64,000 nt of DNA from assembly GCF_009914755.1 (NCBI RefSeq), contig NC_060939.1. One strand, written 5' to 3'. This document shows, one piece after another, positions 15,206 through 17,329 of this stretch. The translations under genes were made by a program, and so were the position numbers. The notes under the pieces are model-generated. The model saw nothing but the letters and a program-made list of their open reading frames with translations. It had not been told where the DNA came from and did not search any database. The DNA is from the human T2T-CHM13v2.0 reference genome, Homo sapiens. Every line of letters starts with the position of its first letter. The stretch's first letter is position 1.

Positions 15206-16736
15206 ATCAAAAGCTCTGTAGGAAAACCACTTTTGCCATTCTAGCACTTGAAGCTTGCTTGTTCCCTGAAAGCAATGGTTCTCAAAACATGACACCCCCC
15301 TCCCCCAGCTTTTGGGGATCAGTGACTCTTAATTCTTCTTATGATTAGAGAGTTGGTAGGGACAAAGAAGAGTTGGAGGAAGGTAGGAAGTATAAGCTGG
15401 TCAGTGGATCCGTTTGAGATGTAGGACTGTTTTGGGAGGACACACCCACAGTGTAAGCCATCAGGAGCCATCCATTAACTTGTAATAATATAAGTGGATA
15501 AGATCAATTTTTGGTAGATTGGCAAGATGTGAAAATTATTTGGTATGTCTAATTTTAACATTAGCTGTTGACACATTTATAAATACAGAAACTAAAGTTA
15601 GTGCAGATGATTTCAAGAAATTTTAAAATATTGTGAAGAGCATTGTAATTCCACACAGTATTAAAGCCTGGAGAACACTTAAATAATCTCTGTAGCTGTG
15701 GGAAAAAGCGCAGCCGCATTTATATTTAGTTACCGGCTTTTTTGGAACATGATACCACGTTTATCTTTTTTCTCTTCTTTAGGCTCATTATGTGACATGA
15801 AAAATCATCTTTTTGACAGAGTGATGCTATTAATCCAAATATAATTGAAATAAAATTACTCCAGGCTTTGTCCTCCACACTACCTGATTCCCTTTCCTCT
15901 GCATTGCTCATTGGTGTGGTTGCAGGTGGACACGGGAGAGGGGCAGAGCCTCAAACCAGTCCTTGGGCTGCCAGTCTGTAGCTCTGAATAAAATGGACTG
16001 CATAAGAGGTGTCCTTGAAGAAAAATGCTAGAATTATCTTCATAATTAATTTTTATCTCAAGCTTTAGATTCTCTTTCTGTGCATGTTTGGGGAGGGGAG
16101 GGCTTATGCTCAAATATTTTCTCCAAAAAGGGTGTGTGATCAAAAACTTGATTGCTGGTTAGCATGATGAAGAGATACTTAGGTGAGAGGTTGGAAATGT
16201 TGATGCCAAAAACTCCTAGAATTTTCTGTAGATTTCCATTTTCCATGCGACCTACTCACCTCTAACTATAATAAATTACAGTTTTGTCTCCTATCATGTA
16301 CCATTCAGTTCAGCATGGTGACGTGTGAATCAGATTCAGGGAAAGAATAAGAAACAGACACCAGTGGCTTTATGTCGGGCCATCTCTCCCTCTCATGCCT
16401 CCCTCTCCCACTGTTTGGGCAGCCACTGAGCAAATAGCCAAAGTGGAACTGCCTGGTGAGGCAGAGAAGATACCTAGATGGTCTCTCAACTGAAGGATCT
16501 ATTTCTGCATAACTGGTTACCCTTTTAAAGTCCTGGATTTCAGAGCCATCTCTCGTTGGTGAGATCTGTGTATAAAGGACCCATTTAAGGGAGTGGGCAG
16601 AAGGCATAAGTGCCTTGAAGGGAAAAGACTGCATGGCACAGAATGTGACCATGTGCCGCCTGCCACACTGCCTTTGTGTTGCTAGGCTATGGCTACATCA
16701 CATTTGTTTCTCTCTCTCACTCTGAACGCTTCTGAG

Positions 16737-16751
16737 AAGTTTCAAAGGAAG
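16737..16751 (+). CDS. RYR3: Candidate alternative 15-nt microexon of RYR3 (KFQRK), paralogous in position to the RYR2 KFMMK microexon
   Basis: tttgtttctctctctcactctgaacgcttctgag|AAG TTT CAA AGG AAG|gtaagc. Phase 0-0, 307 nt upstream of exon 4. The GAG acceptor is atypical, so use is unproven. Confidence 0.45.
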
Positions 16752-17058
16752 GTAAGCAGTACCTATGTCACTTACATGCTTCTCTGGTAGAACAGCTCTG
16801 GGTTTCTGCTGATCCTGGGCAGAGGCCATTTCTGGGAATAGATTTGGTCCCACACACCCTCTCCCAAGGATGTTGCATGGCTGTGGTCACACGTCTCTTT
16901 CTGCCCGTAGACCAGCCACTTGCTTCTGGAATGAATTCCTTAGGAGCTTTGCAATGGGTCTTTTCCTGGTAGTCTGTCTCCCAGAATTATTGTGTTGCTT
17001 GGCTCCCGGAGAAGCCACAACGGGCATGTGCTGACCTTATTCTTCCTCATTCCCACAG

Positions 17059-17133
17059 GCAGCACAAGGAGGTGGCCACAGGACCCTGTTATACGGCCAT
17101 GCAGTTCTCCTGAGGCACTCTTTCAGCGGAATG
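17059..17133 (+). CDS. RYR3: RYR3 coding exon (exon 4 by recalled numbering), 75 nt, phase 0-0: [25 protein letters not shown]
   Basis: Acceptor ttcttcctcattcccacag, donor ATG/gtaagc. The translation matches the RyR N-terminal domain A motif [12 protein letters not shown]. Confidence 0.97.
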
Positions 17134-17329
17134 GTAAGCAGCTCTGGTGCCCACTTTCATCATTCAAGGAGAAGGAAAAACTGAAGAGGGGGAAATACAG
17201 GAAGCCAGCAATAACAACGTAACAGCAGGAACAACTGGAACATAACTAATTTTAGCACGTTATCCTCTTGGCATTTCCTACATATGACCTACCTCAATTT
17301 GCAATAATTGCAATTGTGTTTTTTGTTTC

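What the first reader, a model, noticed from the sequence alone, without database searches (positions are those of the whole stretch)
16737..16751. Hidden 15-nt in-frame microexon (KFQRK) matching the RYR2 KFMMK microexon
Seen: a long CU-rich tract, ctctgaacgcttctgag|AAGTTTCAAAGGAAG|gtaagc, with a strong donor, phase 0-0, 307 nt before exon 4. Recalled: RYR2 has a 15-nt exon encoding KFMMK at exactly this junction, while canonical RYR3 joins ...GGEG directly to AAQGGG. Same length, phase, position and KFxxK pattern argue for a paralogous exon. The acceptor is a weak GAG with a tandem AAG (12-nt FQRK form, also in frame). The usual SRRM4 UGC position reads CGC (tgaacgc), so the exon may be rare, tissue-restricted or decaying in this lineage. 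Inclusion would add a basic 5-residue insert to an NTD-A loop. Standard aligners miss exons this short.
Basis: partly seen in the sequence, partly recalled or inferred. Interest (0 to 1): 0.8.

Follow-up and report, generated by a model that had tools for sequence, protein, structure and literature searches.

The report
Conserved relic-or-live RYR3 microexon
A 12- or 15-base stretch in a human RYR3 intron matches a tiny exon that fish and a songbird splice into the same calcium-channel gene and that the heart gene RYR2 also carries; it is tightly conserved in mammals, but nobody has shown that human cells use it.

Summary
AG|AAGTTTCAAAGGAAG|GTAAGC sits at 16737-16751, in phase 0-0, 307 nt before the RYR3 exon AAQGGG.

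The same genome has AG|KFMMK (15 nt)|GT 5.2 kb before the RYR2 TAQGGG exon, and a 21-nt exon (QVDVEKW) lies upstream of that. RYR3 has the matching 21-nt exon (LSDLSEW) 18.8 kb upstream of the candidate.

Annotated RyR3 proteins carry a 4-5-residue insert at exactly this junction: RFIRK, QFIRK, RLIRK, KLIKR/LIKR and RFAKK in eight fish species, and FIRK in 20 of 32 zebra finch records. Human (K)FQRK is the only consensus match in the 19-kb interval.

Antisense ORFs from seven unnamed mammalian records are 96% identical to human over acceptor, exon and donor. Identity falls to 42-70% in the flanks.

Evidence against current use:
- The acceptor is weak (GAG, or AAG for the 12-nt form).
- None of 25 mammalian RyR3 records shows the insert.
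- One murid-like ORF implies a 1-nt deletion in the exon.
- No RNA evidence could be reached.

Verdict: a true orthologue of an ancient RyR2/RyR3 microexon under selection in mammals. Human inclusion is plausible (about 0.6) but unproven.

The parts
16710..16733 (+). Pyrimidine-rich tract and likely branch-point region (ctctctctcactctgaacgcttct); it holds 'aacgc' where RYR2 has 'atgc'
   Evidence: One search gives the sequence. Pyrimidine fraction is 0.71 over -20..-4. In the antisense frame, 46 of 52 cells are identical to human across up to 7 mammalian ORFs. The V->I change in P0291, P0295 and P0297 corresponds to aaCgc -> aaTgc, so a UGC is present in those (inference from codons). The branch point at the A of 'ctcac', about 17 nt before the AG, is my reading of the sequence and was not tested.
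16734..16739 (+). Tandem acceptor GAG|AAG (NAGNAG type): the first AG gives the 15-nt exon, the second gives the 12-nt exon
   Evidence: The -3 base is G for the 15-nt form and A for the 12-nt form, whereas 9 of 9 annotated RYR3 exons in the window have C or T there. The RYR2 75-nt paralogous exon itself uses an AAG acceptor. The antisense residues L,L are unchanged in 7 of 7 ORFs, but the -3 base is a wobble base in both frames seen, so its state in other mammals is unknown.
16737..16751 (+). Candidate 15-nt cassette microexon AAG TTT CAA AGG AAG = KFQRK, phase 0-0
   Evidence: It is the only consensus match in the 19,115-nt interval. It is paralogous to RYR2 KFMMK and orthologous to the fish RyR3 RFIRK, QFIRK, RLIRK, KLIKR and RFAKK inserts. 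The antisense L-K-L-P-L is unchanged in 34 of 35 cells; the one change (P0293, P->S) equals AGG->AGA, which is synonymous Arg in the exon frame.
16740..16751 (+). Alternative 12-nt form TTT CAA AGG AAG = FQRK, via the AAG acceptor
   Evidence: Same length and position as FIRK in 20 of 32 zebra finch RyR3 isoform records and LIKR in Notothenia (P0093), against KLIKR in Gymnodraco (P0096).
16752..16757 (+). Donor site gtaagc (AAG|gtaagc matches the donor consensus at 8 of 9 positions)
   Evidence: The antisense Y,A residues are unchanged in 13 of 14 cells. The one change (P0293, A->T) equals gtaagc -> gtaagt.
16874..16879 (+). TGCATG (RBFOX-type motif) 123 nt downstream of the candidate donor
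   Evidence: The background is 0.16 per 400 nt of + strand. The antisense ORFs read either N/S-C-P or A-M-Q here, and both readings fit retained TGCAT (inference). Any function is untested.
16630..16635 (+). Second TGCATG, 107 nt upstream of the candidate
   Evidence: It lies outside the well-aligned part of the mammalian comparison. Significance unknown.
17059..17133 (+). RYR3 exon 4 ([25 protein letters not shown]), the downstream partner of the candidate
   Evidence: The hub annotation. Paralogous 75-nt exons lie in RYR2 (G000:C1:236780991-236781065) and RYR1 (C19).

Best explanation
The 15-mer is the human orthologue of an ancient cassette microexon of the RyR2/RyR3 lineage. It is the second of two adjacent microexons (21 nt, then 15 nt) that lie between the exon ending ...EG and the 75-nt exon beginning xAQGGG.

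Shown here:
- The same order (exon 3, 21 nt, 15 nt, 75-nt exon) occurs in human RYR2 and RYR3.
- RyR3 proteins of fish and zebra finch carry the insert.
- The human site and its splice signals are the conservation peak of this intron stretch in other mammals.

Inferred:
- In human the element still works as a low-inclusion or tissue-restricted (probably neuronal or muscle) cassette exon.
- It is most likely spliced through the AAG acceptor as a 12-nt FQRK insert, and less likely through GAG as 15-nt KFQRK.
- Intronic enhancers, such as the UGCAUG 123 nt downstream or SRRM3/4-type factors, would be needed to help define so short an exon.
- Inclusion adds four or five mostly basic residues to the loop that follows the SVRALQEMLANT helix of the N-terminal domain. 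This is the loop that both microexons lengthen in RyR2. The insert would so tune the N-terminal region of the channel.
For: 1. Paralogy in the same genome:
- RYR2 has cctacag|AAATTCATGATGAAG|gtaaga (KFMMK) 5.2 kb before its TAQGGG exon.
- RYR2 has ccacag|QVDVEKW (21 nt)|gtatgt 8.4 kb further up.
- RYR3 has ttgctag|LSDLSEW (21 nt)|gtatgt at window -2077..-2057.

2. Orthologous inserts at the RyR3 junction:
- PKGLDKW-RFIRK in Polyodon and SADHEKW-RFAKK in Thalassophryne.
- RLIRK in Paramormyrops and in Poecilia mexicana (a 71-member cluster), and RLIRR in Sinocyclocheilus.
- QFIRK in Carassius.
- KLIKR in Gymnodraco and LIKR in Notothenia.
- FIRK in 20 of 32 zebra finch records.

3. Rarity: it is the only consensus match in 19,115 nt. 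Shuffles gave a mean of 0.051 (15 nt) and 0.131 (12 nt), and 0 of 1000 for the strict form.

4. Conservation. Seven unnamed mammalian antisense ORFs (of 9 hits) were compared with human, counted as cells identical over cells aligned:
- 36 of 86 (42%) in 16650-16709.
- 46 of 52 (88%) in 16710-16733.
- 54 of 56 (96%) in 16734-16757.
- 69 of 98 (70%) in 16758-16799.
- 118 of 188 (63%) in 16800-16886.
The best four of 47 sliding 8-codon windows all cover the whole 15-mer. Exon 4 in the same frame scores 67 of 78 (86%). The two changes inside the block fit a synonymous Arg change and a better donor.

5. Splice sites: the donor matches at 8 of 9 positions. An AAG acceptor is used constitutively by the paralogous RYR2 75-nt exon.
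Against: - The acceptor is poor. The -3 base is G (15 nt) or A (12 nt), while 9 of 9 annotated exons in the window have C or T.
- Human has CGC where RYR2 and three of the seven mammalian ORFs have UGC.
- None of 25 mammalian RyR3 protein records seen at this junction carries a clean 4-5-residue insert, while 3 carry the 21-nt insert. The large Bos-led cluster (1117 members) shows only its representative, and only 120 of 1464 and 120 of 304 hits were listed.
- The solved RyR3 structure (9c1e/9c1f) has neither insert.
- P0003, an unnamed ORF whose tail is closest to the mouse record, reads MLLRSSKEGKQ over the site. The most economical reading is the human sequence with one T fewer, which gives 14 nt and breaks the frame (inference from a translation).
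- The middle residue is Q in human, against I, M, A or K elsewhere.
- No RNA-seq, EST or long-read evidence could be consulted.
- No paper describing the exon was found.
Confidence: 0.6

Rival explanations
1. Retired exon. The element descends from the ancestral microexon, but the human spliceosome no longer includes it because the acceptor has weakened to GAG/AAG and the UGC is lost. Its conservation in mammals would then reflect another role of the same bases. One such role is a decoy or pseudo-exon, or an intronic splicing element, that helps to process the 26.9-kb intron or to define exon 4. Alternatively the decay is slow and recent.
For: - The acceptor is weak compared with 9 of 9 annotated exons.
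- Human has CGC rather than UGC.
- None of 25 mammalian RyR3 records has the insert, while the 21-nt exon is seen in 3.
- One murid-like ORF implies a frame-breaking deletion although the rest of the block is kept. That pattern fits a constraint that is not on coding.
- The whole 300 nt before exon 4 is fairly well conserved, at 63-70% in an arbitrary frame.
Against: - The conservation peak coincides with acceptor, exon and donor rather than with a neighbouring motif.
- The frame is intact in 7 of 7 antisense ORFs.
- The only change inside the exon is synonymous in the exon frame.
- The donor stays near consensus.
- Microexons are often missed by annotation, so absence from protein records is weak evidence.
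Confidence: 0.3
2. Chance pseudo-exon: an AG...GT pair in a long intron that happens to encode K-F-x-x-K.
For: Ten AG-N12/15-GTRAG stop-free pseudo-microexons occur in the same 19-kb interval.
Against: - The expected count of the peptide pattern is 0.04 per window on both strands.
- It is 0.05-0.13 in the relevant interval, and 0 of 1000 for the strict form.
- The order relative to the 21-nt exon is the same as in RYR2.
- It matches the independent RyR3 consensus xFIRK of fish and finch.
- There is a sharp conservation peak in mammals.
Confidence: 0.03

Closest known systems
Human RYR2 15-nt exon encoding KFMMK (G000:C1:236775812-236775826), with the RYR2 21-nt exon QVDVEKW before it
   Same: Same place in the gene (after the 21-nt microexon and before the 75-nt xAQGGG exon), same length, same phase 0-0 and same K-F-x-x-K pattern. 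Both have a gtaag donor and a pyrimidine tract of similar look.
   Different: RYR2 has a CAG acceptor, a UGC at -11 and a pyrimidine fraction of 0.82. RYR3 has GAG/AAG, CGC and 0.71. The RYR2 residues are present in every solved RyR2 chain listed, whereas canonical RYR3 and the solved RyR3 lack the insert. Some RyR2 records skip the 21-nt exon (P0075, P0076, P0222) or both exons (P0238), so these too are cassette exons.
Zebra finch RYR3 isoforms with the 4-residue insert FIRK (20 of 32 NCBI records listed)
   Same: Same gene, same junction (...SEG|FIRK|AAQGGG), alternative (12 records lack it), and the same length as the human 12-nt FQRK form. Three of four residues are identical.
   Different: These are predicted models whose RNA support I could not see. 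Finch has I where human has Q.
Fish ryr3 15-nt insert (RFIRK, QFIRK, RLIRK, RLIRR, KLIKR/LIKR, RFAKK)
   Same: Same junction, 5 residues (4 in Notothenia), basic-aromatic/aliphatic-x-basic-basic. Two species show it together with the 21-nt insert, in the same order as in the human genome.
   Different: Only protein records were seen, most of them predicted. The first residue varies (R, Q, K), and L often replaces F.
RYR3 21-nt microexon LSDLSEW (window -2077..-2057, outside the window)
   Same: Same intron, same phase, and a cassette microexon absent from the selected transcript. It has a paralogue in RYR2 (QVDVEKW) and in fish and bird RyR1 ((A)VDLDKW).
   Different: It has transcript-level support in mammals: a mouse cDNA-derived record (P0028) and models in Ursus and Sciurus. 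It has a TAG acceptor with UGC at -6 and a TGCATG 35 nt downstream. The 15-nt candidate has no such mammalian support.
Neuronal SRRM3/SRRM4-dependent microexons (3-27 nt) as a class (recalled from the literature; listings seen)
   Same: Length, frame preservation, location in a surface loop of an ion channel, and strong conservation of the exon and of its upstream intron.
   Different: The defining UGC close to the acceptor is CGC in human. Neural inclusion and SRRM4 dependence were not testable here.

Membership tests
RyR2/RyR3 N-terminal 15-nt (12-nt) cassette microexon | Lies between the 21-nt microexon and the 75-nt exon that begins xAQGGG | tested here: met
   In RYR3 the 21-nt exon is at window -2077..-2057, the candidate at 16737-16751 and exon 4 at 17059. 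RYR2 has the same order at C1:236767419, 236775812 and 236780991.
RyR2/RyR3 N-terminal 15-nt (12-nt) cassette microexon | 15 or 12 nt, phase 0-0, no stop, flanked by AG and GT | tested here: met
   The acceptor is of the weak kind (G or A at -3).
RyR2/RyR3 N-terminal 15-nt (12-nt) cassette microexon | Peptide of the form [KRQ][FL]x[RKML][KR] | tested here: met
   KFQRK compares with RFIRK, QFIRK, FIRK, RLIRK, RLIRR, KLIKR, RFAKK, KFMMK and KFKLK. It is the only match in the 19,115-nt interval.
RyR2/RyR3 N-terminal 15-nt (12-nt) cassette microexon | Included in mature mRNA in at least some tissue | not testable with these tools
   No human RNA data were on hand. None of 25 mammalian RyR3 protein records shows it. 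Finch and fish records do, but these are mostly predicted models.
SRRM3/SRRM4-dependent neuronal microexon | UGC motif within about 20 nt upstream of the acceptor (feature recalled) | tested here: not met
   Human reads aaCGCttctgag. The codons imply TGC in P0291, P0295, P0297 and P0003. RYR2 15-nt has TGC at -11 and RYR3 21-nt has TGC at -6.
SRRM3/SRRM4-dependent neuronal microexon | Neural-specific, SRRM4-dependent inclusion | not testable with these tools
   No expression or perturbation data were reached. Supplements of four microexon papers held no RYR3 splicing entry, and some files were not searched.
SRRM3/SRRM4-dependent neuronal microexon | Exon and flanking intron highly conserved | tested here: met
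   54 of 56 cells are identical over acceptor, exon and donor, and 46 of 52 over the upstream 24 nt, against 42-70% in the flanks. The top four of 47 sliding windows all cover the whole 15-mer.
NAGNAG tandem acceptor | Two AGs three bases apart at the 3' splice site | tested here: met
   ctGAGAAG|TTT.
NAGNAG tandem acceptor | Both acceptors used, giving isoforms that differ by one residue | not testable with these tools
   Indirect only: KLIKR (Gymnodraco) against LIKR (Notothenia), and the 4-residue FIRK in finch.
RBFOX-enhanced exon | (U)GCAUG within a few hundred nt downstream (feature recalled) | tested here: met
   TGCATG lies at +123, against a background of 0.16 per 400 nt. There is also one at -107, which by the usual rule would act the other way.
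RBFOX-enhanced exon | Inclusion depends on RBFOX | not testable with these tools
   No data.

The most novel reading that the evidence does not exclude
Human RYR3 makes an undescribed isoform with a (K)FQRK insert in the N-terminal domain. This insert is half of a two-microexon module (21 nt plus 15 nt) that predates the RyR2/RyR3 split. RyR2 uses the module almost always and RyR3 only in particular cells. The module would be a conserved, splice-controlled dial on the length and charge of one N-terminal loop. In RyR2 that same flexible loop is reported to re-fold and rescue the exon-3 deletion. No solved RyR3 structure or functional study has yet looked at the long-loop form.
Probability: 0.45. 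Interest if true: 0.55.

Novelty: new member of a known kind. Interest (0 to 1): 0.42.

Why it matters
RyR3 is studied, expressed and solved (9c1e/9c1f) in a form that lacks both N-terminal microexons. Every solved RyR2 chain listed contains both. If human RYR3 includes the 12/15-nt exon in some cells, three things follow:
- The channel's N-terminal loop exists in up to four or more lengths that nobody has compared functionally.
- Variants in this 'deep intronic' block would need to be read as exonic or splice variants.
- RyR2 and RyR3 would differ less in their genes than in how a shared pair of microexons is regulated.

If the exon is not included, it is a clean example of a retired microexon that is still held under constraint.

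Tried and rejected
1. Orthologous DNA from other vertebrates. No vertebrate genome other than the window's own is held. Two scans of genome contigs with patterns built from the conserved block gave 0 hits and 1 hit. That hit, L011, is an ordinary bacterial coding region and a chance match, so it was rejected.

2. Earlier findings of this scan were not open.

3. Literature. Searches for RYR3+microexon (1 paper, irrelevant; passage read) and for KFQRK (an unrelated Plasmodium paper) led nowhere. So did LSDLSEW/KFMMK/QVDVEKW (0 papers) and ryanodine receptor+microexon (listing only). General microexon discovery (listing only), RyR3 splice variants (listing only) and Ryr3/Ryr2 with Srrm3/4 (listing only) also gave nothing. 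No paper describes a RYR3 exon 3/4 microexon. Subscription papers are not covered.

4. Supplements of five papers:
- PMC7821500: no Ryr2 or Ryr3.
- PMC7935315: expression rows only, files 13-18 not searched.
- PMC12626424: none.
- PMC9303857: a zebrafish expression row only, files 13-17 not searched.
- PMC12727881: none.
One paper asked for by a remembered id was not held.

5. Structure. AlphaFold2 of the Notothenia fragment P0093 with a 24-row alignment gave mean pLDDT 39.7. That is too poor to place the insert and it was not used.

6. An antisense protein-coding gene as the reason for the conservation was rejected. Human has stops at both ends of a 62-codon frame, conservation is a local peak rather than ORF-wide, and the long ORFs also read antisense through exon 4. 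They look like gene calls on eukaryotic DNA, and several have W where human has TGA.

7. P0001 (97% identical to human) starts just after the donor and says nothing about the exon.

8. The odd dog model P0213 (GENG-KFM-AAQGGG) and the owl and falcon models (NIKFLNMDS and others) could not be interpreted without their DNA.

Full report
THE OBSERVATION

The window reads gtttctctctctcactctgaacgcttctgag|AAGTTTCAAAGGAAG|gtaagcag, with the 15-mer at 16737-16751. Exon 4 of RYR3 (17059-17133) translates from its first base as [25 protein letters not shown]. The candidate lies 307 nt upstream, encodes KFQRK, and would keep the frame between two phase-0 junctions. A second AG three bases further on (gagAAG|TTT) would give a 12-nt FQRK form. 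All details in the finding are correct.

The pattern AG-K-F-x-x-K-GT occurs once in the window on both strands, against 0.04 expected.

THE RYR2 PARALLEL, CHECKED IN THE SAME GENOME

The window's genome can be searched.
- The 75-nt exon has paralogues in RYR2 (C1:236780991-236781065, ctctaaag|ACTGCTCAA...) and in RYR1.
- A pattern for AG-KFMMK-GT hits once in RYR2, 5.2 kb upstream of that exon: ccttatgcccctacag|AAATTCATGATGAAG|gtaagaca. There was one unrelated hit on chromosome 6.

It is incomplete, though. RyR2 proteins read ...KSEG-QVDVEKW-KFMMK-TAQGGG, and the first seven residues are a separate 21-nt exon 8.4 kb further up.

RYR3 has the matching 21-nt exon, ttttgctag|CTCAGTGATCTCTCGGAATGG|gtatgt (LSDLSEW), at G000:C15:31307923-31307943. 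That is window -2077..-2057. Exon 3 ends at window -9796. The canonical intron is therefore 26.9 kb and holds, in order, the 21-nt exon and the 15-nt candidate. RYR2 has the same layout.

WHAT RYR PROTEINS OF OTHER VERTEBRATES SHOW

Three protein searches gave 99 short fragments, 120 of 1464 full-length RyR3-like proteins and 120 of 304 short fragments. I read the junction in all of them.

- RyR3 with a 4-5-residue insert directly before xAQGGG:

| Species (record) | Insert |
|---|---|
| Polyodon (P0220) | PKGLDKW-RFIRK |
| Thalassophryne (P0085) | SADHEKW-RFAKK |
| Paramormyrops (P0046) | RLIRK |
| Poecilia mexicana (P0224, 71-member cluster) | RLIRK |
| Sinocyclocheilus (P0055) | RLIRR |
| Carassius (P0094) | QFIRK |
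| Gymnodraco (P0096) | KLIKR |
| Notothenia (P0093) | LIKR |
| Zebra finch (20 of 32 NCBI isoform records) | FIRK |

- RyR2: KFMMK in mammals and salmonids, and KFKLK in coelacanth. Some records carry only the 15-nt insert (P0075, P0076, P0222) or neither insert (P0238).
- The 21-nt insert alone: mouse (P0028, a cDNA-derived record), Ursus, Sciurus, Pleurodeles and several fish RyR3 records. It also appears as (A)VDLDKW in fish and bird RyR1.

The 21-nt exon is therefore older than the three paralogues. The 15-nt exon is seen in RyR2 and RyR3 only.

Human (K)FQRK fits the RyR3 pattern xFIRK at every position but the middle one.

None of 25 mammalian RyR3 records shows the short insert. The biggest mammalian cluster (1117 members) shows only its representative. 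The solved RyR3 (9c1e/9c1f) has neither insert, while all listed RyR2 chains have both.

IS THE HUMAN SITE THE ORTHOLOGUE OR A LOOK-ALIKE?

In the 19,115 nt between the 21-nt exon and exon 4, the only AG/GT-flanked 15-mer or 12-mer that fits the family consensus is this one. In 1000 dinucleotide shuffles the mean was 0.051 (15 nt) and 0.131 (12 nt), and 0 of 1000 for a stricter form with a GTRAG donor. Ten AG-N12/15-GTRAG stop-free segments exist in the interval, so bare splice-site pairs are common and the peptide match is what is rare.

CONSERVATION IN MAMMALS

No other vertebrate genome is held, so I used translated ORFs from unnamed contigs. The antisense frame across the site (window 16698-16886, 62 codons) happens to be in register with the exon's codons.

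A search of the representatives library found 9 hits. Seven of them (P0290-P0295, P0297; 75-92% identical) are the same antisense reading from other mammals, and three of these run on through exon 4.

Identity to human, counted as cells identical over cells aligned:

| Segment | Identical/aligned | Percent |
|---|---|---|
| 16650-16709 | 36/86 | 42% |
| 16710-16733 (pyrimidine tract and branch region) | 46/52 | 88% |
| 16734-16757 (acceptor, 15-mer, donor) | 54/56 | 96% |
| 16758-16799 | 69/98 | 70% |
| 16800-16886 | 118/188 | 63% |

- Of 47 sliding 8-codon windows, the best four all cover the whole 15-mer (95-98%).
- Exon 4 in the same frame gives 67/78, or 86%.
- The frame is unbroken in all seven ORFs.
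- The only two changes in the block, both in P0293, correspond to AGG->AGA (still Arg in the exon frame) and gtaagc->gtaagt (closer to the donor consensus). This assumes otherwise unchanged codons, which is an inference.
- A V->I change in three ORFs corresponds to aaCgc->aaTgc.

Limits:
- The first base of each exon codon and the -3 base of the acceptor are wobble bases in the frames available, so they are unknown in other species.
- The ORFs are unnamed, and some are close relatives of each other. By eye there are about four distinct lineages.

THE RODENT-LIKE EXCEPTION

P0003 is an unnamed forward-strand ORF whose intron-coded tail is nearly that of the mouse record P0028. It reads MLLRSSKEGKQSVPHLHAS... 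over the site. Human reads TLLRSFKGR* in one frame and EVSKEGKQ in the next.

The simplest fit is the human sequence with ATG for ACG and one T fewer in the TTT run. That gives a 14-nt segment, which would break the reading frame if spliced in. This rests on a translation and could also be an assembly error.

SPLICE SIGNALS

- The donor AAG|gtaagc matches the consensus at 8 of 9 positions.
- The acceptor is the weak point. The -3 base is G or A, while 9 of 9 annotated exons in the window have C or T. However, the RYR2 75-nt exon itself uses an AAG acceptor.
- The pyrimidine fraction upstream is 0.71 (RYR2 15-nt: 0.82).
- TGCATG lies 123 nt downstream and 107 nt upstream of the candidate.
- Both 21-nt paralogues have a TGCATG 35 and 44 nt downstream, against a background of 0.16 per 400 nt. 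That points to RBFOX-type control of this exon pair. The role of the motif is recalled knowledge and was not tested.

HOW IT MOST LIKELY WORKS

Shown: the element is the orthologue of a cassette microexon used in fish and finch RyR3 and in RyR2, and in mammals it is conserved together with its splice signals.

Inferred:
- In human it is still a cassette exon with low or cell-type-restricted inclusion.
- It probably uses the AAG acceptor to give a 12-nt FQRK insert, the same length as finch FIRK.
- It depends on intronic enhancers because it is so short.
- The insert lengthens the loop after the SVRALQEMLANT helix of the N-terminal domain and makes it more basic.

A review passage states that in RyR2 a flexible loop inserts into the beta-trefoil and rescues the exon-3 deletion (passage only, and the original paper was not read). 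That this loop is the one encoded by the two microexons is my inference. My own structure prediction was too poor to use (mean pLDDT 39.7).

RIVALS

- A retired exon kept for another reason, such as a decoy or splicing element, or slow decay. This fits the weak acceptor, the silent mammalian annotation and the rodent-like deletion (0.3).
- Chance is nearly excluded (0.03).

WHAT IS MISSING

- No RNA data could be consulted.
- The other 18 RefSeq RYR3 transcripts were not visible to me, so the exon may already be annotated.
- Seven full-text searches found no paper on it.
- Five sets of supplements held no RYR3 splicing entry, and some files were not searched.

VERDICT

Human usage is open. I file it as a new member of a known kind, a conserved ion-channel microexon, of moderate interest.

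Noticed in passing
G000:C15:31307923-31307943 = window -2077..-2057 (locus L008 about 1503-1523; L010): A 21-nt RYR3 microexon (LSDLSEW; ttttgctag|...|gtatgt, with UGC at -6 and TGCATG at +35) lies 2 kb before the window. It is not part of the junction used by the selected transcript. It is present in a mouse cDNA-derived record (P0028), in Ursus and Sciurus models, and as TSDLSRW in Pleurodeles.
   Followed up: partly
L009 (RYR2, C1:236767419-236767439) and L008: Both 21-nt paralogues (RYR2 QVDVEKW and RYR3 LSDLSEW) have a TGCATG 44 and 35 nt downstream of their gtatgt donors. The background is 0.16 per 400 nt. This suggests shared RBFOX-type control kept since the RyR2/RyR3 split.
   Followed up: partly
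Proteins P0229, P0235, P0237, P0240, P0262, P0278, P0284, P0286, P0288, P0289: Fish and bird RyR1 records carry a 6-7-residue (A)VDLDKW insert at the same junction, so the 21-nt microexon predates all three RyR paralogues. Human RYR1 has only about 1.1 kb between the two flanking exons, and no insert was seen in the mammalian RyR1 records.
   Followed up: partly
L002 about 1490-1500 (RYR2 75-nt exon): The constitutive RYR2 exon TAQGGG... uses an AAG acceptor (ctctaaag|ACT) behind a very strong pyrimidine tract (fraction 0.94).
   Followed up: no
Proteins P0213, P0217 (dog); P0105, P0128, P0130, P0135, P0139, P0143 (falcon, owl and flycatcher models): Several automatic RyR3 models have odd residues at this junction: GENG-KFM-AAQ, GEG-VKRSWSR-AAQ, NIKFLNMDS and others. 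Some start with V, as if reading into the intron.
   Followed up: no
Proteins P0001, P0003, P0290, P0291, P0297 against window 16765-17211: Unnamed contig ORFs read W where the human sequence has TGA, and they run for 150-255 codons through intron and antisense exon. They look like gene calls on mammalian DNA under a code that reads TGA as W. They are useful as a stand-in for orthologous DNA, but they are not real proteins.
   Followed up: partly
window 17088-17114 (exon 4): In the antisense comparison, three positions of exon 4 differ between human and all three other mammals that reach it. On the sense strand, human and the Papio record read GHAVLL where most other records read GHAILL.
   Followed up: no
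L011 (JAGBCG010000180.1:819-1640): A 22-base chance match to the candidate exon and donor inside an ordinary bacterial coding region of a MAG. It is not host DNA.
   Followed up: yes
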